Source: Enterobacteria phage HK140. Taken from it: a stretch of DNA of 40,710 nucleotides. Position numbers and translations under genes: made by a program. Position 1 is the first letter of the stretch. Each line of letters starts with the position of its first letter. The stretch lies in sequence record NC_019710.1. One strand, written 5' to 3'. A model generated the notes under the pieces. It worked only from the letters and a program-made list of their open reading frames with translations, had not been told where the DNA came from and ran no database searches. This document shows, piece after piece, positions 11,281-35,125 of the stretch.

Positions 11281-12032
11281 GTCTTAACGCAGATTTTCAG
11301 AAGCTCGAACCTGGCGATGTGGTCAGGCTTTTCGAAGTGGATGGCACGGCATTTGGTACAGGTGATGTGCTGCGATTTCACAGCTACAGTCTTGCGCACT
11401 CTGAAGCCGAAATTATCGCTGCTGGCGGTGATGAAAATAAACTGCCAGCAAAATCTATCTGGTGGCAGGGTGAGGAGTATAAAGCGTGGCCATGCCAGAT
11501 TGAGGGGATCGAAGCTTCAACCTCGGGAAGTAGTGCCCAGCCAAAACTTTCGGTTGCTAACCTCGACAGTTCGATCACCGCGCTTTGCCTGGCTTACGAC
11601 GATATGCTGCAGGCGAAGGTGACGATACATGACACCCTTGGTAAGTATCTCGATGCGAGAAACTTCACCGGAGGCAATCCGACAGCCGATCCGACCCAGG
11701 AGAAGCTGAAGGTTTTCTACATCGATGCAAAGAGCAGTGAAAACAATGAAGTTGTTGAGTTCACACTATCCAGCCCTATGGATCTGCAGGGGCTGATGAT
11801 ACCTACCCGCCAGCTTCATTCTCTGTGCACATGGTGCATCCGGAACAAGTACCGAACCGGCGACGGCTGCGACTATGCAGGTACGCGCTATTTCGACAAA
11901 AACAACAACCAGGTAAGCGATCCGTCACTGGATGAATGCAACGGAACGCTGACGGCCTGCAAACTTCGGTTCGGTGAAAACAACGAACTCTCGTTTGGTG
12001 GGTTCCCGGGTACGTCGCTGATCAGGAGTTGA
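11277..12032 (+). CDS. L: Minor tail protein L
   Basis: 251 aa with a Cys cluster (CTWCIRNKYRTGDGCDYAG...C) typical of lambda L. Confidence 0.85.
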   Translation: MSLNADFQKLEPGDVVRLFEVDGTAFGTGDVLRFHSYSLAHSEAEIIAAGGDENKLPAKSIWWQGEEYKAWPCQIEGIEASTSGSSAQPKLSVANLDSSITALCLAYDDMLQAKVTIHDTLGKYLDARNFTGGNPTADPTQEKLKVFYIDAKSSENNEVVEFTLSSPMDLQGLMIPTRQLHSLCTWCIRNKYRTGDGCDYAGTRYFDKNNNQVSDPSLDECNGTLTACKLRFGENNELSFGGFPGTSLIRS

Positions 12033-26848: not shown

Positions 26849-27737
26849 CCTCCAGTTTCGCTTTGCATTCTATGTAAATGGCTTGTACGTTCTGCTGCAA
26901 TTTCATTCCAGCTGTCAGGCGATATGCTTCTGCAAAATATCGCTTCAAATCATCCATGTTTTCTGCCTGAGCCATTTCATCGCAAAGAAGTTGTGCTTTA
27001 TCCATTATTTCCTGCTGGCGTTTCCGTTCATCTTCGCGGATATCTTCCTCTGATTTGTGCGGCATAACTGGTTCAGTCCATACACCTTCTTCTTCGTTTA
27101 GTACGTGAATAGCACTATCAAGACGTGATGCCTTAGGCCAATACTTGCTTGCACGCTTTACGACCGTCTTTCGCGCCATCTCATTCCAGTGATTTACCCA
27201 TGGTCCTTTATCGCTGAATGCTGCCTTGCTTGTTTTCCTTACAGCCTCAATTTCAGCCAGACTCATCTCTTCCGTTAGATAATCACCTGCTGGCGTCTTA
27301 ACTGTGCAGTAAACGCCAACGATATCACCACGATCACCGAAGGCGTTGTATTTATGGGTTGGTGCTTTATCAAGCCCGTTTGACTCATAGGTATCGTTAG
27401 CATGAACAAGTTTTGCCTGACCCCATGAGATAACACCAGACTCCATTGCAATATGGAGCAATCCCATATAGCTGATATCAAGGCAAACCATGCCGTCGCG
27501 AGGAACCAGATAAGCCAGTTTGCTGGCAGGGTTTAAGGTGATGCCGATCGCAGCAACATTGATGATAGCGTTCTGTGCGCTGGTTGGATTTGCCAGTGCC
27601 GTTTTAGCCAGGTAATCGTTTTTCTGGAAATACTGAATTGCAAACTGGCTTTCCTTAGCCCATGTCACCGTCTGTTCAGTCAATGCTCCACAGAATAACT
27701 GCTCCTGCTGTTTAACGAATTCAACGATATTGCTCAT
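26826..27737 (-). CDS. recT: RecT-family single-strand annealing recombinase
   Basis: 303 aa with typical RecT/Bet-like sequence character; no adjacent exonuclease gene recognised. Confidence 0.8.
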   Translation of the reverse strand: MSNIVEFVKQQEQLFCGALTEQTVTWAKESQFAIQYFQKNDYLAKTALANPTSAQNAIINVAAIGITLNPASKLAYLVPRDGMVCLDISYMGLLHIAMESGVISWGQAKLVHANDTYESNGLDKAPTHKYNAFGDRGDIVGVYCTVKTPAGDYLTEEMSLAEIEAVRKTSKAAFSDKGPWVNHWNEMARKTVVKRASKYWPKASRLDSAIHVLNEEEGVWTEPVMPHKSEEDIREDERKRQQEIMDKAQLLCDEMAQAENMDDLKRYFAEAYRLTAGMKLQQNVQAIYIECKAKLEVASEQTI

Positions 27738-28045
27738 GCTGCTTCTCCATAAATGTGTCTGCGTTTGAATATTGCGAAGGCATATTCAGCCTTAACTCTT
27801 TCGGTTATTGCATCCCAGAACCATTCAGCGGCTTTTTCCTGATAGTTACAATCATCATCTTCCAGCCAGTCGATAGCGTCCTTAGTGTGTTCATCTGGTT
27901 TATATGAGCGAAGCATTTCGCTTATTGGGTCGCAACGTTTGCAGAGGCGATCAACTTCACTGTTGATTCGTTCGTAATCTTCATCAGTAAAACTTGCGAT
28001 TATTTGCGATATTTCACGCTTATCATTCAGAGTCAGAATCATCAT
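27734..28045 (-). CDS. Hypothetical protein
   Basis: 103-aa ORF; ATGA overlap with recT. Confidence 0.4.
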   Translation of the reverse strand: MMILTLNDKREISQIIASFTDEDYERINSEVDRLCKRCDPISEMLRSYKPDEHTKDAIDWLEDDDCNYQEKAAEWFWDAITERVKAEYAFAIFKRRHIYGEAA

Positions 28046-28126
28046 CTTTCTCCTGTTCTTTGTGCTGATTGAGCATTTTGTTCATCTGACGAATGAATTC
28101 TTCGTCTGACCAGTTATCTGTAAAAC

Positions 28127-28297
28127 TCATGGGCGGCCTTGTTGTTTCAAAATATCCCAAAGCTTTTCGAGCAAACTTTTCATTCTTGGTTGTTTAAAGT
28201 CTGCTCCGGTTAAAATGTTTTTTCGTGAATGCTGTACCGATAAAATCGGGTTGAAAGGGCGAACCGATGCCGCCCCTGCAATAGCGAACTGTTGCAT
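28127..28297 (-). CDS. cIII: CIII-like protein (candidate FtsH inhibitor)
   Basis: 56 aa from the internal ATG at 28297 (RBS AGGAG): MQQFAIAGAAS...KSLLEKLWDILKQQG resembles lambda CIII (MQYAIAGWPVAG...ESLLERITRKLRDGWKRLIDILNQPG). Confidence 0.55.
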   Translation of the reverse strand: MQQFAIAGAASVRPFNPILSVQHSRKNILTGADFKQPRMKSLLEKLWDILKQQGRP

Positions 28298-28523
28298 AGG
28301 ATGCTCCTTCTGTTTGATTACATAACGAAAACGCCTCGAGTGAAGCGTTATTGGTATGCATATAAAAAAGCCCTCACACTGGAGGGCAAAGAAGATTTCC
28401 AATAATCAGAACAAGTCGGCTCCTGTTTAGTTACGAGCGACATTGCTCCGTGTATTCACTCGTTGGAATGAATACACAGTGCAGTGTTTATTCTGTTATT
28501 TATGCCAAAAATAAAGGCCACTA

Positions 28524-28724
28524 TCAGGCAGCTTTGTTGTTCTGTTTACCAAGTTCTCTGGCAATCATTGCCGTCGCTCGTATTGCCCATTTATCGACAT
28601 ATTTCCCATCTTCCATTACAGGAAACATTTCTTCAGGCTTAACCATGCATTCCGATTGCAGCTTGCATCCATTGCATCGCTTGAATTGTCCACACCATTG
28701 ATTTTTATCAATAGTCGTAGTCAT
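28524..28724 (-). CDS. Hypothetical Cys-rich small protein
   Basis: 66 aa with four Cys (C-x5-C-x2-C-x5-C); RBS AGGA before the ATG; start overlaps a 27-aa acidic upstream ORF. Confidence 0.4.
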   Translation of the reverse strand: MTTTIDKNQWCGQFKRCNGCKLQSECMVKPEEMFPVMEDGKYVDKWAIRATAMIARELGKQNNKAA

Positions 28725-28937
28725 AAGGATAGTCCTGGTATTGTTCCATCACATCCTGGGGATGCTCTTCGAACTCTTCAAATTCTTCTTCCATATATCA
28801 CCTTAAATAGTGGATTGCGGTAGTAAAGATTGTGCCTGTCTTTTAACCACATCAGGCTCGGTGGTTCTCGTGTACCCCTACAGCGAGAAATCGGATAAAC
28901 TCTATTCACCCCTACAGAGAGCAAAAGAGAAACGCCG

Positions 28938-29519
28938 ATGAACAACTCATGGTGGCAGGAACTAATGCATTTTTTCCTGCAAGGAATGACACTTAAACAG
29001 TTGATTCATATGCTAATCATCCTGATCATATTGATTATTGTTATGCCGGTAAGCGTAAAAGAATGGATAAACCTGCATAATCCAGAAATCCTTCCTCATT
29101 ACTGGATGTATTACATCCTGTTGTTTTGCGTTAGCTATGTGCTTAACGGCGTTGTTAATTCCGCTTATCACGCTGTGACTGAAAGAATTGAGGTATTCGC
29201 TGCTCAGAAGCGCAAATCTAAAGAAGAAAAATATGTGCAAGATTTGTTTGATTCGTTAACTCTTGGAGAAAGAGCGTATTTGGCATTCGCTGTAGCCGCG
29301 AATAACCAGCTAAAGACAGAAAAGGGAAGCCCTGAAGCAATCTCATTGCTCGAAAAAGGGCTTCTTATTCGGATACCTTCTGCTACTGGATATCCTGAAA
29401 TCGACCGTTTTGTTATCCCGGAACGCTATAGAAATGAGTGCTACATTAGGTTTGCTGGGAAGAAAGACAGTCTTATGGATGAACTTATCGCTCAGGATAA
29501 GCATGGCAAAAACAAGTAA
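28938..29519 (+). CDS. Membrane protein, candidate SieB-like superinfection exclusion protein
   Basis: 193 aa; two N-terminal hydrophobic helices (LIHMLIILIILIIVMPVSV, YWMYYILLFCVSYVLNGVV) and a charged C-terminal domain; opposite strand to the surrounding early operon. Confidence 0.45.
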   Translation: MNNSWWQELMHFFLQGMTLKQLIHMLIILIILIIVMPVSVKEWINLHNPEILPHYWMYYILLFCVSYVLNGVVNSAYHAVTERIEVFAAQKRKSKEEKYVQDLFDSLTLGERAYLAFAVAANNQLKTEKGSPEAISLLEKGLLIRIPSATGYPEIDRFVIPERYRNECYIRFAGKKDSLMDELIAQDKHGKNK

Positions 29520-29534
29520 TTAGCAAATGATTTA

Positions 29535-29807
29535 TCATCTCGCCGTCAGTTGTTTTGATTTCCTGTAGCCTGCCGCGTAAATGGCTACGTTTGGCAGGCA
29601 AACACTTCCACTGCATTCATCAACTTTCTTGCAGCGAAGACTTCCGAGTGATGCTGCTTTGTCTGCTCTGACGCAACCAGAGAGCTTTAGCGCAATTTTT
29701 CGCGCCAGTCGCTGCTCTTGCATCGCCTGTTCACGTTGAGCCTGTCTGCGTGCTCTGCGGCGATTTCTGGCGTTATCGTCAGCCAGATATGTAATGACTA
29801 CTGTCAT
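29535..29807 (-). CDS. N: N-like antitermination protein
   Basis: 90 aa from the ATG at 29807 (RBS GGAGG); N-terminal arginine-rich motif DNARNRRRARRQAQREQ; first gene downstream of nutL. Confidence 0.6.
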   Translation of the reverse strand: MTVVITYLADDNARNRRRARRQAQREQAMQEQRLARKIALKLSGCVRADKAASLGSLRCKKVDECSGSVCLPNVAIYAAGYRKSKQLTAR

Positions 29808-30118
29808 GTTGACCTCCGATGAAACAACTTTGGAATTGATAGTGATTGCAAAGTGGTTTCTGGCCCCTCGAATTGAGGGGCAGAAAGAGCATCTCGCCAC
29901 CTAATAGGTCGATGCTCGGATCGAGAGATTTAATTAACCTCGGTTTTGAAGTTATGCATTCACATAAATCCTCCTGTTGCATGTGCAGCATTGGCTGTGT
30001 TTGGCGGCTGCATTTCGCCTATGGAATTGACTTTGGCGGTGACGCGCCGGGTGCTTATCTTCCGGTTGCCGTCGTGCAGCTGCACTTCACGTCACCCCAA
30101 AGCCAACTACTCTTTGGT

Positions 30119-30159
30119 TCCCGCATTTCGGCGGGACAATCCCATCAATGTTAAAGAGC
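30119..30159 (-). promoter_or_regulatory. nutL (boxA-like GGCTCTTTAA plus boxB hairpin)
   Basis: Minus-strand boxB TCCCGCCGAAATGCGGGA is identical to the nutR boxB; boxA-like element lies 14 nt upstream. Confidence 0.6.
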
Positions 30160-30206
30160 CTGCCAATCTGTTCCGTTTGGCTACCAGCGTCCTGCTGATG
30201 GTTAAA

Positions 30207-30292
30207 GAATACTGTAGGTATTTTATTTTGTAAATACTCAAGGTATTTATTTTGGTGAAATAATGATAAGCAAATGAATACAAAGGATATTT
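30207..30292. promoter_or_regulatory. OL operators (three 17-bp sites) and presumed pL
   Basis: GAATACtgtagGTATTT (30207-30223), AAATACtcaagGTATTT (30232-30248), GAATACaaaggATATTT (30276-30292). Confidence 0.6.
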
Positions 30293-30377
30293 ATTTTTTC
30301 GGCGTCTGCTTGTTCAGTGCTTTTTATGCGGGATATGTGAAGTGGATCCCGATAGCTATTGCTGCCGGGATTATGGG

Positions 30378-30746
30378 TTAGTCAGCGAAGGTTAAGACGA
30401 GAATTACCTTAATGATGTCTGCTACAACAGACACGGCCATAGATAAACCAAAGACGATCCAAGCCATAGAGATGTCTTCACTACCATCGTATAGAGTTCC
30501 GTAATCACTGGTATAAGGCGTAAATGTCGCGCCTTGATACAATAGGTATAAGCTTGATCCATAGAGGATAAATGCAGATATCCCTTGTATTGCTATGATC
30601 ACCAGAATCATGAAACGAGCTGATCTATGCGCCCAAGCCTGGCTTATTTTTTCTGATAGAGATTTCGCAAGAAAAGCATGCGCTAAGCCGTAAATTGTCG
30701 AGATTGCCAACATCCCAAAAAAGCTTGCTATAGCGGTTCCAACCAT
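30378..30746 (-). CDS. Small three-helix membrane protein co-transcribed with cI (lambda rexAB position)
   Basis: 122 aa from the ATG at 30746 (RBS AAGGGG), or 129 aa from the TTG at 30767 overlapping the cI stop; three hydrophobic segments; lies between cI and OL. Confidence 0.6.
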   Translation of the reverse strand: MVGTAIASFFGMLAISTIYGLAHAFLAKSLSEKISQAWAHRSARFMILVIIAIQGISAFILYGSSLYLLYQGATFTPYTSDYGTLYDGSEDISMAWIVFGLSMAVSVVADIIKVILVLTFAD

Positions 30747-30763
30747 AAGCGCCCCTTGCGTGA

Positions 30764-31480
30764 TCAAACCAGCCTTAGTTTTGTCTCAATTGCAACGCCT
30801 ATAATCTTGCAGTTTCCATTGATTGGCACGAGAGGCCATGCAGGATTAAGTCCCTTGAGGTATTTATTTCCGCCGTCGATTATCAGCTTCTTGAATGTTG
30901 CTTCGTTAGAGTCAGAAAGTTTTGCTATGACCAAGCTGCCGTTGACCGCCTCCCTTCCGGTATCGAAAAGAACGAATGTTCCCTCTGGAATGCTTAACCC
31001 AACCGGTGCCGTCATTGAATCACCTTCCACTTTAAGCCAGAACGCATTACCTTGAATATGCGCGTCAGACTCAAGCCAAACATCTATGTCTTTAATGGTG
31101 TATGGTTCGCATGCTTCACACCACGAGCCAGCCTGGATACTGCTTAACACCGGATACCTCTTTCCTGCTCTGTATTCCCCTGCATACCTTACGTTGGCAT
31201 CGCTCTTAAGGCTTTCTGCCTGTTCTGCAACCTTGGCAGCAATTGACTGGCTAAAATCAGCAATTGAGACTTGCAACAACCGTGCAAAACCAGATGCAAC
31301 CTCAACGTTTAGCGCGTTTCTGCCATTAAGATAATGCCCTACCGCTCCTTGGGTGATACCCAGTTCATCAGCGATTGAGTATTGGGTTATTCCCAATTCT
31401 TTCTTTTTTGACTCATACAAAGCCTTAAGCCGCTTAGCGTCTTCGAGCTGTTCTGTCGTCAGTGATTTTTTATTTTCCAT
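30764..31480 (-). CDS. cI: CI repressor (HTH plus S24 autopeptidase)
   Basis: 238 aa; N-terminal HTH (QYSIADELGITQGAVGHYLNG), C-terminal GDSM serine motif and downstream Lys; divergent from cro across OR. Confidence 0.9.
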   Translation of the reverse strand: MENKKSLTTEQLEDAKRLKALYESKKKELGITQYSIADELGITQGAVGHYLNGRNALNVEVASGFARLLQVSIADFSQSIAAKVAEQAESLKSDANVRYAGEYRAGKRYPVLSSIQAGSWCEACEPYTIKDIDVWLESDAHIQGNAFWLKVEGDSMTAPVGLSIPEGTFVLFDTGREAVNGSLVIAKLSDSNEATFKKLIIDGGNKYLKGLNPAWPLVPINGNCKIIGVAIETKLRLV

Positions 31481-31490
31481 AGCTTAATTC

Positions 31491-31556
31491 TAATAGCTAA
31501 GGTACTTAAACTAAAAATACCCTGAGTATTGATTGATTTGAATACCTGTAGTATTC
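31491..31556. promoter_or_regulatory. OR operators (three sites) with pRM and pR
   Basis: TAATAGctaagGTACTT (31491-31507, weak), AAATACcctgaGTATTG (31515-31531), GAATACctgtaGTATTC (31540-31556, perfect palindrome); spacing 24-25 bp. Confidence 0.65.
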
Positions 31557-31586
31557 TTTGTTCATGGTTAATAACGGAGAGTGCAT

Positions 31587-31781
31587 ATGATTCGAATGAC
31601 ACTTGCCGATTACGCCAAAATCCATGGACAGGCTAAAGCAGCCAGTGACTTTGGTGTAATCCAGTGCGCTATCAGCAAGGCCATTCTGGCAGGCCGTAAC
31701 ATCATGGTTACGGTAAAGCCTGATGGCAGTGTGATTGGAGAGGAAGTTCGTCCTTTCCCAAGCAACAAGAAAAACAAATAG
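31587..31781 (+). CDS. cro: Cro repressor
   Basis: 64 aa aligning with lambda Cro (ITLKDYA...GVYQSAINKAIHAGR...EEVKPFPSNKK) but with a different recognition helix ([12 protein letters not shown]). Confidence 0.9.
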
Positions 31782-31787
31782 TAACAC

Positions 31788-31831
31788 CGCTCTTTAACAG
31801 TCATGGTCATCACTCCCGCCGAAATGCGGGA
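31788..31831 (+). promoter_or_regulatory. nutR (boxA CGCTCTTTA plus boxB hairpin)
   Basis: boxA at 31788-31796; boxB TCCCGC-cgaaat-GCGGGA at 31814-31831. Confidence 0.7.
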
Positions 31832-31889
31832 ATACAACGCGCATAATTTGATGCGCATAACTTCTTATTTGTTAAGGAAATACTTACAT

Positions 31890-32168
31890 ATGCAACTTAC
31901 AAGTACTCGCAAGAAAGCGAATGCAATTACAAGCAACATCCTGAATCGAATTGCTGTACGTGGTCAGCGAAAGGTTGCCGACGCGTTAGGGATTAATGAA
32001 TCGCAAATTTCGCGATGGAAAGACAGCTTTATCCCAAAGATGGCCATGCTTCTGGCTGTGCTGGAGTGGGGTGTTGAAGACGAGGAATTAGCAAAGCTAG
32101 CAAAGAAAGTAGCCATGGTGCTGACAAAAGAAAAGCCTCAAGACTGCTGCAACAGTTTTGAGGCCTGA
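31890..32168 (+). CDS. cII: CII transcriptional activator
   Basis: 92 aa from the ATG at 31890 (RBS AAGGA); QISRWK...IPKMAMLLAVLEWGVEDEE matches lambda CII (SQISRWKRDWIPKFSMLLAVLEWGV). Confidence 0.85.
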   Translation: MQLTSTRKKANAITSNILNRIAVRGQRKVADALGINESQISRWKDSFIPKMAMLLAVLEWGVEDEELAKLAKKVAMVLTKEKPQDCCNSFEA

Positions 32169-32202
32169 TGTAGAAAGACTGGATCAATCCACAGGAGTCA
32201 TT

Positions 32203-33102
32203 ATGACAAATACAGCAAAAATACTCAACTTCTGCAGAGGTAACTTTGCCAAACAGGAGCGTAATGTGGCAGATCTCGATGATGGTTACGCCAGACTATC
32301 AAATATGCTGCTTGAGGCTTATTCAGGCGCAGATCTGACCAAGCGACAGTTTAAAGTGCTGCTTGCCATTCTGCGTAAAACCTATGGGTGGAATAAACCA
32401 ATGGACAGAATCACCGATTCTCAACTTAGCGAGATTACAAAGTTACCCGTCAAACGGTGCAATGAAGCCAAGTTAGAACTCGTCAGAATGAATATTATCA
32501 AGCAGCAAGGCGGCATGTTTGGACCAAATAAAAACATCTCAGAATGGTGTATCCCTCAAAACGAGGGAAAATCCCCTAAAACGAGGGATAAAACATCCCT
32601 CAAATTGGGGGATTGCTATCCCTCAAAACAGGGGGACACAAAAGACACTAATACAAAAGAAAAAAGAAAAGATTATTCGTCAGAGAATTCTGGCGAATCC
32701 TCTGACCAGCCAGAAAACGATCTTTCTGTGGTTAAACCGGATGCTGCAATTCAGAGCGGCAGCAAGTGGGGAACAGCAGAAGACCTGACCGCCGCAGAGT
32801 GGATGTTTGACATGGTGAAGACTATCGCACCATCAGCCAGAAAACCGAATTTTGCTGGGTGGGCTAACGATATCCGCCTGATGCGTGAACGTGACGGACG
32901 TAACCATCGCGACATGTGTGTACTGTTCCGCTGGGCATGCCAGGACAACTTCTGGTCCGGTAACGTTCTTAGCCCGGCCAAACTCCGCGACAAGTGGACC
33001 CAGCTCGAAATCAACCGTAACAAGCAACAGGCAGTCGTGACAGCCAGCAAACCAAAACTCGACCTGACAAACACAGACTGGATTTACGGGGTGGATCTAT
33101 GA
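32203..33102 (+). CDS. O: Replication initiator O
   Basis: 299 aa from the ATG at 32203; appears near-identical to lambda O from memory (MTNTAKILNF...); contains the ori iterons. Confidence 0.9.
   Translation: MTNTAKILNFCRGNFAKQERNVADLDDGYARLSNMLLEAYSGADLTKRQFKVLLAILRKTYGWNKPMDRITDSQLSEITKLPVKRCNEAKLELVRMNIIKQQGGMFGPNKNISEWCIPQNEGKSPKTRDKTSLKLGDCYPSKQGDTKDTNTKEKRKDYSSENSGESSDQPENDLSVVKPDAAIQSGSKWGTAEDLTAAEWMFDMVKTIAPSARKPNFAGWANDIRLMRERDGRNHRDMCVLFRWACQDNFWSGNVLSPAKLRDKWTQLEINRNKQQAVVTASKPKLDLTNTDWIYGVDL
32552..32636. repeat. ori iterons (four copies of the TCCCTCAAAACGAGGGA-type repeat) with adjacent A/T-rich region
   Basis: Four related ~18-bp repeats at 32552, 32572, 32597 and 32619, followed by an A/T-rich stretch at 32641-32675, inside the O gene. 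Confidence 0.8.
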
Positions 33103-34160: not shown

Positions 34161-34601
34161 ATGAAAAAACTAACCTTTGAAATTCGATCTCCAGCACATC
34201 AGCAAAACGCTATTCACGCAGTACGGCAAATCCTTCCAGACCCAACCAAACCAATCGTAGTAACCATTCAGGAACGCAACCGCAGCTTAGACCAGAACCG
34301 AAAGCTTTGGGCTTGCCTTGGTGACGTCTCTCGTCAGGTTGAATGGCATGGTCGCTGGCTGGATGCAGAAAGCTGGAAGTGTGTGTTTACCGCAGCATTA
34401 AAGCAGCAGGATGTTGTTCCTAACCTTGCCGGGAATGGCTTTGTGGTAATAGGCCAGTCAACCAGCAGGATGTGTGTAAGCGAATTTGCGGAGCTATTAG
34501 AGCTTATACAGGCATTCGGTACAGAGCGTGGCGTTAAGTGGTCAGACGAAGCGCGACTGGCTCTGGAGTGGAAAGCGCGATGGGGAGATCGGGCTGCATG
34601 A
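34161..34601 (+). CDS. ninB: NinB (Orf-family recombination mediator)
   Basis: 146 aa from the ATG at 34161 (MKKLTFEIRSPAHQQNAIHA...), lambda NinB-like. Confidence 0.85.
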   Translation: MKKLTFEIRSPAHQQNAIHAVRQILPDPTKPIVVTIQERNRSLDQNRKLWACLGDVSRQVEWHGRWLDAESWKCVFTAALKQQDVVPNLAGNGFVVIGQSTSRMCVSEFAELLELIQAFGTERGVKWSDEARLALEWKARWGDRAA

Positions 34602-35125
34602 CTATCAAATCAAATACGCCAGCGCACGACAAGGACTGCTGGCAAACGCCGCTTTGGCTTTTTGATGCACTGGATATTGAGTTTGGATTCTGGCTGGATT
34701 CGGCAGCGAGCGACAAAAATGCTCTGTGTGCTCACTGGCTAACTGAGGCCGACGACGCGCTCAATTCTGAGTGGGTAAGCCACGGTGCAATCTGGAATAA
34801 CCCACCGTACAGCAATATCAGGCCGTGGGTGGAAAAAGCCGCTGAGCAGTGCATACAACAGCGACAGACGGTAGTGATGCTTGTGCCAGAGGATATGTCA
34901 GTCGGATGGTTCAGCAAGGCTCTGGAGAGTGTTGACGAAGTTCGTATTATCACTGATGGACGGATTAATTTTATCGAACCATCGACAGGGCTGGAGAAGA
35001 AGGGAAACAGCAAAGGTTCCATGCTGCTGATTTGGCGACCGTTCATCAGTCCTCGACGGATGTTTACTACCGTATCCAAAGCGGCATTGATGGCGATCGG
35101 GCAGGGCGTCAGGAGGGCGGCATGA
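34598..35125 (+). CDS. DNA N6-adenine methyltransferase (phage Dam type)
   Basis: 175 aa from the ATG at 34598 (ATGA overlap with ninB); NPPYS motif (the DPPY-type catalytic motif). Confidence 0.8.

What the first reader, a model, noticed from the sequence alone, without database searches (positions are those of the whole stretch)
28860..29519. Opposite-strand membrane protein gene between N and the early operon (SieB-like candidate) with paired upstream direct repeats
A 193-aa protein with two N-terminal transmembrane helices is encoded on the plus strand, convergent with N, inside an otherwise leftward operon. It is preceded by two copies of ACCCCTACAG(C)GAGA at 28874-28888 and 28909-28921, about 35 bp apart, which could be a promoter or regulator binding site. 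Position and architecture resemble superinfection-exclusion SieB genes of lambda and P22, but I could not confirm homology. Its antisense arrangement relative to pL transcription suggests lysogen-specific expression.
Basis: partly seen in the sequence, partly recalled or inferred. Interest (0 to 1): 0.65.

Follow-up and report, generated by a model that had tools for sequence, protein, structure and literature searches.

The report
SieB exclusion gene with its regulatory cassette
The ORF is an ordinary, already-annotated copy of the phage superinfection-exclusion gene sieB, and the two upstream repeats sit at the -35 region and the first ten transcribed bases of its known promoter, inside the known antisense RNA sas. 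The same conserved upstream block also precedes many unrelated prophage genes.

Summary
ORF 28938-29519(+) is SieB: Pfam PF14163 scores 90 bits, and it is 84% identical to P22 SieB and 99% to VT1-Sakai SieB. It lies between N and ral on the opposite strand and occurs in about one third of complete E. coli genomes.

By near-identity with the curated P22 record, the rest of the known system is present. This includes the PsieB -10 TAAACT (28896-28901), the transcription start at 28908, the in-frame inhibitor Esc (ATG 29010, codon 25), and the antisense RNA sas (about 28942 to 28838/28815, minus strand).

The two ACCCCTACAG copies are therefore not a free-standing operator pair. Copy 2 is +1..+10 of sieB mRNA. 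Copy 1 is -34..-25 and lies inside a conserved hairpin. Both are transcribed in antisense as part of sas. Their exact role is not established. I favour RNA-level pairing between sas and the mRNA 5' end, built on an old 34-bp duplication of the leader.

One result goes beyond the finding. The 85-bp upstream block, especially its left 33 bp, is a portable cassette found before at least 21 unrelated small gene families in enterobacterial prophages. A sister version carries a different repeat pair that has changed in both copies together.

As a gene this is already known. The cassette deserves follow-up.

The parts
28938..29519 (+). sieB coding sequence (193 aa), the superinfection-exclusion (abortive infection) membrane protein
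   Evidence: ORF listed. Pfam SieB 90.1 bits. PHROG 1301, E=8e-124. 84% identity to P22 SieB and 99% to VT1-Sakai SieB. Annotated as SieB in 1790 of 5426 complete E. coli genomes.
29010..29519 (+). esc-equivalent: an in-frame internal start at SieB codon 25 (169 aa). Esc is the truncated product that inhibits SieB.
   Evidence: The P22 record annotates esc at 29830..30336, which is sieB codon 25. The window has the same ATGCTAATCATCCTG at 29010. M25 is invariant in the window, P22, lambda and VT1-Sakai. Translation from this codon in this phage was not tested.
28896..28901 (+). PsieB -10 hexamer TAAACT
   Evidence: It lies at the 3' end of the promoter feature of NC_002371.2 (29690..29720), in sequence identical to the window. 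All variants carry TAnnnT at this place, always 6 nt before repeat 2. The generic sigma-70 scan missed it because the -35 region is poor.
28908..28917 (+). Repeat copy 2 (ACCCCTACAG). This is +1..+10 of the sieB mRNA, with the transcription start inferred at 28908.
   Evidence: The 'sieB RNA start site' at 29727 in NC_002371.2 is the first A of this 10-mer in P22. The window is identical from 28834 to 28921 except for one base.
28874..28883 (+). Repeat copy 1 (ACCCCTACAG). This is -34..-25 of PsieB, overlapping the annotated -35 region, and forms the loop part of hairpin C.
   Evidence: The annotated P22 promoter starts at TGTACC, three bases before this copy.
28865..28889 (.). Hairpin C: TTCTCG / CGAGAA arms enclosing repeat 1
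   Evidence: Folded. Compensatory variants include CTCT/AGAG (L150), TTCTCT/AGAGAA (L209) and the many different stems of the Type III cassettes. Eight sequences have C.A on the plus strand, which is G.U on the minus strand.
28834..28866 (.). 'A/B element': interleaved inverted repeats GCCTG(28834-38)/CAGGC(28853-57) and AACCAC(28845-50)/GTGGTT(28861-66). It forms the left end of the conserved block and the 3' part of sas.
   Evidence: Invariant in the window, P22, lambda and VT1-Sakai although the flanks differ. Compensatory variants are GCCGGG/CCCGGC, GCCTA/TAGGC, GCCCGG/CCGGGC and AACCTCA/TGAGGTT. 95.8% of cells are paired, and the covariation score of 0.111 compares with 0.043 in shuffles, with 0 of 500 shuffles reaching it.
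28815..28942 (-). sas-equivalent antisense RNA. The 5' end lies 5 nt inside sieB. The classical 105-nt length would end near 28838, while P22 small-RNA reads extend to the equivalent of about 28816.
   Evidence: The P22A-sas read contig (P22 11387..11513, minus strand; table in PMC13397905) matches the reverse complement of the window at 123 of 127 positions. The 105-nt length comes from the table in PMC12197685. Transcription in this phage was not tested, and no promoter for it could be recognised.
28925..28932 (+). Purine-rich Shine-Dalgarno-like stretch AAGAGAAA, ending 5 nt before the sieB ATG. It is covered by sas.
   Evidence: Read directly from the sequence. A similar (A)AGAGA stretch follows repeat 2 in most variants.
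28955..28980 (.). Hairpin inside sieB codons 6-15 (GCAGGAA ... TTCCTGC), between the sieB and esc starts and just upstream of the sas 5' end on the minus strand
   Evidence: Inverted repeat I2, folded. The stem is kept while the loop varies in distant homologues (L209, L350). Its function is unknown.

Best explanation
This is the sieB-esc-sas superinfection-exclusion module of a lambdoid (mEpX1/E212-like mosaic) phage, essentially the P22 version.

Known from P22 work, and carried over here by near-identity:
- The prophage transcribes sieB rightwards from its own promoter PsieB, against the repressed pL operon. The -10 is TAAACT at 28896-28901 and the start is at 28908.
- The mRNA gives full-length SieB, a membrane protein that aborts the lytic growth of superinfecting phages.
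- From an internal in-frame AUG (29010, codon 25) the mRNA also gives Esc, a truncated form that neutralises SieB.
- A phage carrying the module makes the antisense RNA sas, about 105-127 nt, running leftwards from about 28942. It covers the sieB leader, ribosome site and start codon. It shuts off SieB translation while Esc continues, so the phage escapes its own exclusion.

Shown by position:
- The two ACCCCTACAG copies are part of this apparatus.
- Copy 2 is the first ten bases of the sieB mRNA.
- Copy 1 lies 34 bp upstream at -34..-25, in the loop region of a conserved hairpin.
- Both are contained, as CUGUAGGGGU, in sas.

Inferred:
- The pair arose by a 34-bp duplication of an ancestral promoter/leader. 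The single-copy 'Type III' form of the same cassette still exists in other phages.
- Both copies are kept alike because the second, hairpin-borne CUGUAGGGGU of the antisense RNA gives an extra pairing site for the 5' end of the mRNA.
- The left part of the block (the A/B element plus the hairpin) is the structured 3' body of the antisense RNA.
For: Identity of the gene:
- Pfam SieB, 90 bits.
- PHROG 1301 over the full length.
- 84% identity to P22 SieB and 99% to VT1-Sakai SieB.
- Annotated as SieB in hundreds of phage and E. coli records.
- Synteny ral - sieB(+) - N, as in lambda and P22.

Promoter, start and Esc:
- NC_002371.2 annotates the sieB promoter at 29690..29720, the RNA start at 29727 and esc at 29830..30336.
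- The P22 sequence matches the window from 28834 to 28921 with a single base difference.
- This places the start on the first A of repeat 2 and esc at 29010.

sas:
- The published P22 small-RNA contig matches the minus strand at 123 of 127 positions.

Conservation of the block:
- It is far more conserved than the protein. It is near-identical upstream of lambda sieB (27% amino-acid identity).
- It is retained in loci found by protein alone at 41-54% identity and in the E. coli K-12 Rac sieB.
- The -10 is always TAnnnT, exactly 6 nt before copy 2.
- When only copy 1 was required in the search, copy 2 was exact in 185 of 246 loci and one base off in 41.
- The commonest variant, ACCCTTACAG, would still give a G.U pair with the antisense copy.

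Coupling of the two copies:
- A sister cassette ('Type II') has the same layout but the repeat TCCCCAACA(A/G). The sequence differs from this window in both copies, so the two copies changed in parallel.

RNA structure:
- Hairpin C and helices A and B show compensatory changes.
- G.U pairs fall mainly on the minus strand for hairpin C and for the outer pair of helix B.
Against: - Nothing was measured in this phage. Transcription, the start site, Esc and sas are all transferred from P22 by sequence identity.
- The original papers (Ranade and Poteete 1993) could not be read. What I say about sas and Esc function therefore rests on my memory of their abstracts, on later reviews and on the curated record.
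- No convincing sigma-70 promoter for sas could be found upstream of 28942 on the minus strand, and no intrinsic terminator follows the A/B element. How sas is made and ended is open.
- The RNA-pairing role of the duplicated 10-mer is inference only. sas already carries the perfect complement of the mRNA leader, so a second site is not obviously needed.
- In the partition function the 10-mers are only about 0.4 unpaired. Copy 1' is largely inside a UGUA/UACA inner stem, with only GGGG exposed.
- In Type I variants where copy 2 carries a mismatch, copy 1 has not changed to match.
- The sas-like sequence does not fold better than shuffles (z = -0.76).
- The strand of helices A and B is not settled: G.U-type pairs occur on both strands.
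Confidence: 0.8

Rival explanations
1. The two repeats are DNA binding sites for a regulatory protein. Such a factor would bind direct repeats 34 bp apart and occlude or activate PsieB at -34..-25 and +1..+10.
For: - The copies bracket the -10 and overlap a poor -35 region (TGTACC/TACCCC), so an activator or repressor would make sense.
- Both copies are strongly conserved while the spacer between them drifts.
Against: - There is no third copy anywhere in the 40.7-kb window, as a phage regulator's operators might show.
- The cassette is shared by heteroimmune phages of Escherichia, Salmonella, Yersinia, Klebsiella and Arsenophonus, with different neighbours and different downstream genes. No linked phage-encoded factor is therefore evident.
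- A sister cassette has a different repeat changed in both copies, which a single host factor would not explain well.
- The sequence is not a LexA or CRP site, by inspection.
Confidence: 0.12
2. The repeat is a relic of a 34-bp tandem duplication of the promoter/leader and has no function of its own. It is kept because each copy is constrained separately. Copy 1 would be constrained as part of the -35 region and hairpin, and copy 2 as the initially transcribed sequence.
For: - Single-copy 'Type III' cassettes exist. In them an extended -10 (TGgTATnCT) directly follows the A/B element, and the C-rich loop of the hairpin sits where the start site is expected.
- In this window the corresponding hexamer is degenerate (TTCTCG) and a second -10 plus a second copy of loop and 3' arm follows (ACCCCTACAG-CGAGA versus ACCCCTACAG-AGAG).
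- Copy 2 tolerates single mismatches without a matching change in copy 1.
Against: - Exact 10/10 identity persists in lineages whose 24-bp spacer has diverged by about half and whose proteins are 27-50% identical.
- The Type II version has a different sequence in both copies.
- Both observations argue for a constraint that links the copies.
Confidence: 0.25
3. The conserved block, ending exactly at repeat 2, is mainly a recombination joint. On this view it is a shared 'boundary sequence' that lets lambdoid phages swap the downstream cargo gene by homologous recombination. Its conservation would reflect that exchange rather than regulation.
For: - Similarity stops abruptly at the end of repeat 2 on the right and at GCCTG on the left, whatever the flanks.
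- At least 21 unrelated protein clusters follow the A/B element.
- Tandem cassettes occur in some contigs.
Against: - A mere joint would not show a conserved TAnnnT at fixed distance, compensatory stem changes or a mapped transcription start.
- The two ideas are not exclusive, since a functional promoter cassette can also serve as a joint.
Confidence: 0.15
4. The ORF is not a functional exclusion gene here. It would be a decayed or repurposed copy.
For: None specific. Truncated and fused SieB fragments do exist in databases.
Against: The ORF is full length and 98-99% identical to hundreds of intact copies. The promoter, leader, esc start and antisense region are all intact.
Confidence: 0.03

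Closest known systems
Salmonella phage P22 sieB / esc / sas (Susskind et al. 1974; Ranade and Poteete 1993; curated in NC_002371.2)
   Same: - The protein is 84% identical over its full length.
- The -75..+14 promoter/leader region is identical apart from one base.
- The esc start falls at the same codon 25.
- The antisense region matches published sas reads at 123 of 127 positions.
- The position between the N analogue and ral is the same.
   Different: - The host is E. coli rather than Salmonella.
- The protein is 193 aa rather than 192 aa.
- The leader is 1 nt shorter.
- The long upstream in-frame extension of the P22 ORF (242 codons, recalled from the paper's abstract) is absent. Here an out-of-frame 43-aa ORF ends at 28941.
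- There are no functional data for this allele.
Phage lambda sieB (NP_597779; lambda 34482..35036)
   Same: - Same Pfam family, same position and orientation between ral/orf28 and N.
- The same upstream block, including both ACCCCTACAG copies and TAAACT.
- M25 is conserved.
   Different: - Only 27% protein identity.
- Similarity ends right after repeat 2, so the leader, the start region and any sas 5' part differ completely.
HK620 hkaP and relatives (PHROG 1244, function unknown)
   Same: They carry the same Type I upstream cassette with both repeats, in the same genomic slot. HK620 hkaP is annotated 'putative superinfection exclusion protein'.
   Different: The protein is unrelated: 164-189 aa, a coiled-coil region plus CxxC...CxxC motifs, and no Pfam or PADLOC family. 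The cassette is thus not specific to SieB.
IS10 RNA-IN / RNA-OUT antisense control and IS10 'fold-back inhibition'
   Same: This is a 'works like' comparison only. A short antisense RNA overlaps the 5' end and ribosome site of its target mRNA. In IS10, pairing nucleates between the extreme 5' end of the mRNA and a loop of the antisense RNA (established knowledge). In the Type III cassettes, the 5' arm of the hairpin lies upstream of the predicted start while the 3' arm abuts or contains the Shine-Dalgarno sequence. As in IS10, only transcripts from the element's own promoter would then have a free ribosome site.
   Different: There is no sequence relation. The outcome in P22 is a switch between two in-frame products rather than simple repression. 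The loop-to-5'-end pairing proposed here is untested.

Membership tests
SieB superinfection exclusion protein B (Pfam PF14163) | Match to the family profile above the curated threshold over most of the domain | tested here: met
   90.1 bits against a cut-off of 26. Residues 24-164 match profile positions 2-144 of 147. PHROG 1301 matches over 1-193 of 193.
SieB superinfection exclusion protein B (Pfam PF14163) | Full-length similarity to an experimentally characterised member (P22 SieB) | tested here: met
   84% identity with no large gaps. tblastn against P22 records gives 84.8% over residues 1-191.
SieB superinfection exclusion protein B (Pfam PF14163) | N-terminal membrane-spanning region followed by a soluble C-terminal domain | tested here: inconclusive
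   One clear hydrophobic helix (residues ~20-40) and a second segment just under the threshold (residues 55-73, Kyte-Doolittle 1.53). No dedicated topology predictor was available.
SieB superinfection exclusion protein B (Pfam PF14163) | Located in the early-left region between the N-type antiterminator and ral, transcribed against pL | tested here: met
   N peptide at 29535..29810(-) and Ral at 28524..28724(-). The order is the same in lambda and P22.
SieB superinfection exclusion protein B (Pfam PF14163) | Aborts lytic growth of superinfecting phages when expressed from the prophage | not testable with these tools
   This needs an exclusion or efficiency-of-plating assay.
sieB-esc dual-product gene (P22 type) | In-frame internal initiation codon giving the truncated inhibitor Esc | tested here: met
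   The ATG at 29010 corresponds to codon 25, the same codon and surrounding DNA as the annotated P22 esc. Met25 is invariant in four homologues. Actual translation was not tested.
PsieB promoter | Sequence identity with the mapped P22 promoter and RNA start | tested here: met
   The window from 28834 to 28921 differs from P22 at one base. The annotated promoter (29690..29720) and start (29727) map to 28871-28901 and 28908.
sas antisense RNA (P22) | Minus-strand sequence matching the sas RNA and overlapping the sieB leader and start codon | tested here: met
   123 of 127 positions are identical to the P22A-sas contig. The region overlaps sieB mRNA at 28908-28942.
sas antisense RNA (P22) | Actually transcribed, and switches translation from SieB to Esc | not testable with these tools
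   There are no expression data for this phage. No recognisable sigma-70 promoter was found for it (and inspection).
Any Rfam RNA family | Covariance-model match in 27500-32500 | tested here: not met
   Only two sub-threshold chance hits appeared (snoR126, RpsF leader), and nothing on 28815-28942. Neither sas nor the A/B element is matched by any Rfam 15 family.

The most novel reading that the evidence does not exclude
The 85-bp block in front of sieB belongs to a widespread and, as far as I could find, undescribed portable regulatory cassette of enterobacterial temperate phages.

What the cassette contains:
- A 33-bp element of two interleaved helices. This is pseudoknot-like, with a short first loop and an A-rich 6-nt third loop on the minus strand.
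- A hairpin whose stem varies by compensatory changes.
- A C-rich leader start.

What the data show about it:
- It precedes at least 21 unrelated small genes, including SieB, HK620 hkaP-like proteins and small membrane proteins.
- It can occur in tandem.
- It exists in three architectures. Two of them carry a leader duplication whose two copies have changed in parallel.

The novel reading has two alternatives. In the first, every such cassette specifies a sas-like antisense RNA with a common structured 3' scaffold and a cargo-specific 5' part. In the second, it is a fold-back device that restricts translation to transcripts from its own promoter. Either way, it would be a general on/off module for prophage-expressed defence and moron genes.
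Probability: 0.3. Interest if true: 0.6.

Novelty: already known. Interest (0 to 1): 0.3.

Why it matters
The gene itself adds nothing new. It is one more copy of a common, annotated exclusion gene whose biochemical mechanism is still unknown.

The value of the second look is twofold. First, it turns an anonymous 'repeat pair' into precisely placed parts of a mapped promoter, leader and antisense RNA. This lets the role of the duplicated 10-mer be tested with a handful of point mutants.

Second, the same upstream block is reused in front of many unrelated prophage genes, including sieB in the Rac prophage of E. coli K-12. If the block proves to be a general antisense or fold-back control module, it would serve as a marker for lysogen-expressed cargo genes, many of them candidate defence genes. 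It would also be a new structured RNA family.

Tried and rejected
- Generic sigma-70 and terminator scan of 28500-29900. It found neither PsieB nor any terminator near the block. Its one promoter-like hit, at 28986-29014 inside sieB, is at chance level (1 found against 3.0 expected).
- Rfam at E<=1. Nothing relevant.
- Reading the two original 1993 papers. They are not held in the library. Full-text searches for the motif strings and for 'hkaP' returned nothing relevant, and searches for sieB transcription data were unproductive.
- LexA box (CTGT-N8-ACAG) and CRP site (TGTGA-N6-TCACA) in or around the repeats and the A/B element. Rejected by inspection because spacing and half-sites do not fit.
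- Intrinsic terminator reading of the A/B element or hairpin C on either strand. There is no U-run after the stems in the window or in the variants.
- A sas promoter. The best minus-strand hexamer before 28942 is CACCAT with no -35, which is not convincing. An alternative antisense -10 inside the block (TAGAGT) is not conserved in variants.
- Deciding the transcribed strand of the helices from G.U versus A.C pairs. Hairpin C leans to the minus strand in the Type I set. An unbiased hairpin search gave mixed counts, and minus-strand folding was only slightly more stable.
- RNAalifold on 37 diverse minus-strand sequences. It recovered only helix A, because the hairpin arms are out of register in the alignment.
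- 'Loop-displayed 10-mer' idea. The partition function gives only about 0.4 unpaired for both copies, so it is kept as a hypothesis only.
- PADLOC and Pfam on the alternative cargo proteins and on the 129-aa protein next to cI. No family was found.
- The genome-contig scan gave only three loci. tblastn against cultured phages reached only P22-type relatives.
Full report
**1. What is at 28860-29519**

The plus strand carries a 193-codon ORF, 28938..29519. It converges on a 91-codon gene that matches the N antitermination peptide family (29535..29810, minus strand). To its left lie three leftward genes:
- a 28-codon acidic peptide identical in type to lambda orf28 (28708..28794);
- ral (28524..28724; Pfam Ral, 160 bits);
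- further leftward early genes.

To the right are a cI-type repressor (30764..31480, minus strand), cro, cII and O. The window is a mosaic lambdoid phage whose right half is closest to mEpX1, mEpX2 and E212, at about 96% identity over about half the query.

**2. The repeats**

ACCCCTACAG occurs exactly twice, at 28874-28883 and 28908-28917, 34 bp apart. The copies extend to 17 nt at 88% identity. They are the only exact copies in the window. Such a repeat appeared in 0.4% of shuffles of the 140-bp intergenic region.

**3. The protein is SieB**

- Pfam PF14163 (SieB): E=1.4e-25, 90.1 bits against a cut-off of 26.
- PHROG 1301 ('superinfection exclusion; inhibits SieB'): matched end to end at E=8e-124.
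- Identity: 99% to SieB of VT1-Sakai, 84% to P22 SieB, 27% to lambda SieB.
- The 1.2 kb around it hits 250 phage records, and 1790 of 5426 complete E. coli genomes where PGAP calls it 'super-infection exclusion protein B'.
- The large protein database returns 118 clusters, nearly all carrying PF14163, from Escherichia, Salmonella, Citrobacter, Leclercia, Yersinia, Obesumbacterium and Arsenophonus.

The hydropathy profile shows one strong membrane helix (residues ~20-40). A second, weaker hydrophobic stretch (residues 55-73) is followed by a balanced-charge soluble domain.

The gene is therefore already known and annotated. Its biochemical mode of action is not known from the literature available to me, beyond the classical description as an abortive-infection function (PMC10883804 abstract; PMC12888859).

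**4. The rest of the known system is present**

The curated P22 record NC_002371.2 annotates four features:
- a sieB promoter (29690..29720);
- a 'sieB RNA start site' (29727);
- sieB (29758..30336);
- an in-frame esc gene (29830..30336).

In the P22 sequence the start site is the first A of the second ACCCCTACAG, and the promoter feature ends with TAAACT. The window is identical to P22 from 28834 to 28921 except for one base. This transfers the following coordinates to the window:
- -10 at 28896-28901;
- transcription start at 28908;
- sieB ATG at 28938, giving a 30-nt leader;
- esc ATG at 29010, which is codon 25, inside the first hydrophobic helix, giving a 169-aa product.

Met25 is invariant even in lambda SieB.

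A recent small-RNA study of P22 lists the previously described antisense RNA sas as a 127-nt contig at P22 11387..11513 on the minus strand, and prints its sequence (PMC13397905). In the P22 record with those coordinates (AF217253), sieB starts at 11509, so sas begins 5 nt inside sieB. The reverse complement of window 28815-28942 matches that contig at 123 of 127 positions. A review gives the sas length as 105 nt (PMC12197685), which would end at about 28838.

According to these reviews and to my recollection of Ranade and Poteete (1993, not readable here), sas blocks SieB synthesis while Esc synthesis continues. Esc neutralises SieB, which lets a phage carrying the module escape exclusion.

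**5. Where that puts the repeats**

- Copy 2 is +1..+10 of the sieB mRNA.
- Copy 1 is -34..-25. It overlaps the weak -35 region and lies between the arms TTCTCG (28865-70) and CGAGAA (28884-89) of a hairpin.
- Both copies, as CUGUAGGGGU, lie inside sas.

The promoter is there, but the repeats flank its -10 rather than constituting its hexamers.

**6. Comparative evidence on the block**

Similarity between the window, P22, lambda and VT1-Sakai is perfect or nearly so from GCCTG (28834) to the end of copy 2 (28917), and collapses outside. VT1-Sakai has a different left flank, and lambda a completely different leader and protein.

A pattern search for the two copies returned at least 119 viral contigs with 65 distinct versions. 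In all real ones the spacer contains TAnnnT (TAAACT, TAAAAT, TATAAT, TAATAT, TAGCAT and others) exactly 6 nt before copy 2. This fits a sigma-70 -10 element and a fixed start.

Because that search required both copies, I repeated it in ways that did not.
- Loci found only through protein similarity (41-54% identity) all keep the block. These came from Yersinia, Phytobacter and Arsenophonus genomes and from Logan assemblies. Copy 2 is exact or one base off (ACCCTTACAG).
- A search requiring only copy 1 gave 246 loci. Copy 2 was exact in 185, one base off in 41, and otherwise the module was truncated or the match spurious.

E. coli K-12 itself carries the block in front of Rac sieB, with copy 2 as ACCCTTACAG at NC_000913 position 1418646.

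**7. Structure in the block**

Left of copy 1 lie two interleaved inverted repeats:
- A: GCCTG (28834-38) / CAGGC (28853-57);
- B: AACCAC (28845-50) / GTGGTT (28861-66).

Variants keep the complementarity:
- GCCGGG/CCCGGC, GCCTA/TAGGC and GCCCGG/CCGGGC for A;
- AACCTCA/TGAGGTT and CGGG/CCCG for B.

On 37 diverse minus-strand sequences, 95.8% of cells pair and four pairs show double changes. The covariation score is 0.111 against 0.043 in shuffles, with 0 of 500 shuffles reaching it, and slid controls collapse. Most pairs never vary, and the shuffle control does not correct for relatedness, so this is supportive rather than conclusive.

On the minus strand the arrangement has the proportions of a classical H-type pseudoknot: 6-bp and 5-bp stems, a 3-nt first loop, and an A-rich 6-nt third loop (AAAAGA).

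The hairpin around copy 1 has many fully compensated stems across the wider family. In eight Type I sequences it has C.A on the plus strand, which is G.U on the minus strand. This mildly favours the antisense RNA as the folded molecule. Other counts are mixed.

Thermodynamically the sas-like sequence is not exceptional (z = -0.76).

**8. The block is not specific to sieB**

After the same Type I block some phages carry an unrelated protein of 164-189 aa. This is the HK620 hkaP family (PHROG 1244), with a coiled-coil region plus two CxxC pairs and no Pfam or PADLOC family. Others carry small membrane proteins.

The left 33 bp (the A/B element) also occurs without the ACCCCTACAG pair, in SfV, SfII, Salmonella 118970_sal3, Klebsiella phages and at least 120 viral contigs for one 21-nt version alone. 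Three layouts emerge.
- Type I: this window.
- Type II: the same plan (hairpin, TCGGtTAATCT, second copy), but the repeat is TCCCCAACA(A/G) in both places (L219, L224, L244, L317 and others).
- Type III: an extended -10 (TGgTATnCT, with TTCACC 16 bp upstream) follows GGTGG directly. Then comes a hairpin with highly variable, compensated stems and a C/A-rich loop. The Shine-Dalgarno sequence and ATG of the cargo gene come immediately after the 3' arm.

In the sequences sampled, at least 21 unrelated protein clusters follow the element, and some contigs have two cassettes about 800 bp apart.

In this window the hexamer corresponding to the Type III -10 is TTCTCG. The sequence from ATCGG to the second ACCCCTACAG-AGAG looks like a second copy of the -10, start and 3' arm. 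This suggests that Types I and II arose from a Type III-like ancestor by a 34-bp duplication.

**9. What the repeats most likely do**

Their positions are shown. Their function is inferred.

The parallel change of both copies between Types I and II argues that the two copies are functionally linked. So does the persistence of exact identity while the spacer and the protein diverge strongly.

An RNA explanation needs no extra factor. The antisense RNA carries a second CUGUAGGGGU in a conserved hairpin, which can pair with the first ten bases of the mRNA (-19 kcal/mol for the isolated duplex). The commonest copy-2 variant would still pair through G.U.

Three points count against this:
- sas already contains the perfect complement of the leader;
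- the 10-mers are only partly exposed in predicted folds;
- copy 1 does not follow single changes in copy 2.

The main rivals, with my subjective weights, are:
- a functionless duplication relic with each copy constrained separately (0.25);
- a recombination joint (0.15);
- a protein operator pair (0.12).

None is excluded by the data.

**10. Verdict**

The finding is a correct recognition of a well-known gene. As such it is ordinary, with novelty 'already known' and overall interest 0.3.

The added value is the exact anatomy. This comprises PsieB, the start at 28908, esc at 29010, the sas region, and the repeats at -34..-25 and +1..+10.

The further observation is that the upstream block is a portable, structured cassette shared by many unrelated prophage genes. 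I could not find this described in the accessible literature, and it has no Rfam family.

Noticed in passing
window 28834-28866; also L214 (SfV NC_003444 24983-25017), L217, L218, L219, L221-L335: The 33-bp 'A/B element' (GCCTGTCTTTT[A/C]ACCAC-N-TCAGGCTCGGTGG) has two interleaved helices. It occurs upstream of at least 21 unrelated small ORF families in enterobacterial phages and prophages, with or without the ACCCCTACAG pair. It has no Rfam match, and I found no description of it.
   Followed up: partly
L219 1201-1300 (Klebsiella phage Kp4884-1); L224, L244, L239, L253, L317: 'Type II' cassettes have the same layout as the sieB block: A/B element, hairpin, TCGGtTAATCT, then a second copy. They carry a different direct repeat, TCCCCAACA(A/G). 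The two copies therefore changed in parallel.
   Followed up: partly
L214 1501-1575 (SfV) and many IMG/VR loci (L115, L222, L235, L248 and others): In 'Type III' cassettes an extended -10 (TGgTATnCT) directly follows the A/B element. The 5' arm of a variable hairpin overlaps it, and the 3' arm abuts or contains the Shine-Dalgarno sequence of the cargo gene. Only transcripts started at the cassette's own promoter would then have a free ribosome site, an IS10-like fold-back logic. In SfV the downstream plus-strand ORF (MTFDEKELDNAINK..., 81 aa) is not annotated.
   Followed up: partly
L244 2931 and 3718; L115 3792 and 4599: Two A/B cassettes lie on the same strand about 800 bp apart, each before its own small gene. 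This is a tandem cargo array.
   Followed up: no
window 28955-28980: A hairpin (GCAGGAA / TTCCTGC) lies inside sieB codons 6-15, between the sieB and esc starts. On the minus strand it ends about 13 nt before the sas 5' end. The stem is conserved while the loop varies in homologues of 41-50% protein identity. It may belong to the translational switch, to sas biogenesis, or be a tL1-type signal.
   Followed up: partly
window 28986-29014: This is the only sigma-70-like match of the consensus scan in the region (ATGACA-17-TATGCT). It lies inside sieB and overlaps the esc ATG at 29010. One match is at chance level, and a transcript from it would start after the esc ATG.
   Followed up: no
L395 2067-2156 (E. 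coli K-12 MG1655 NC_000913 1418566-1418655): The Rac prophage sieB of E. coli K-12 carries the Type I cassette, with helix A as GCCCGG/CCGGGC and copy 2 as ACCCTTACAG. The annotated small RNA KilS (1418405-1418502, minus strand) lies 64 nt further left. Public K-12 transcript-end data could test the predicted start and any antisense RNA.
   Followed up: no
window 30378-30767 (-): A 129-aa predicted multi-pass membrane protein lies immediately downstream of the cI-type repressor, in the position rexB holds in lambda. It matches PHROG 6534 (unknown function) and has no Pfam or PADLOC match. It is a candidate lysogen-expressed function.
   Followed up: partly
L215 1602-2096 (HK620 hkaP) and L098, L123, L162, L149: A family of 164-189-aa proteins replaces SieB behind the same promoter block. 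It has an N-terminal coiled-coil region and a C-terminal CxxC...CxxC. It matches PHROG 1244 (unknown function) and is called 'putative superinfection exclusion protein' only by position.
   Followed up: partly
L340, L357 (IMG/VR); L342, L363, L378: These are truncated Type I blocks. The module is cut right after the start of copy 2 or after the hairpin and joined to unrelated sequence. This is consistent with the block edges being recombination points.
   Followed up: no
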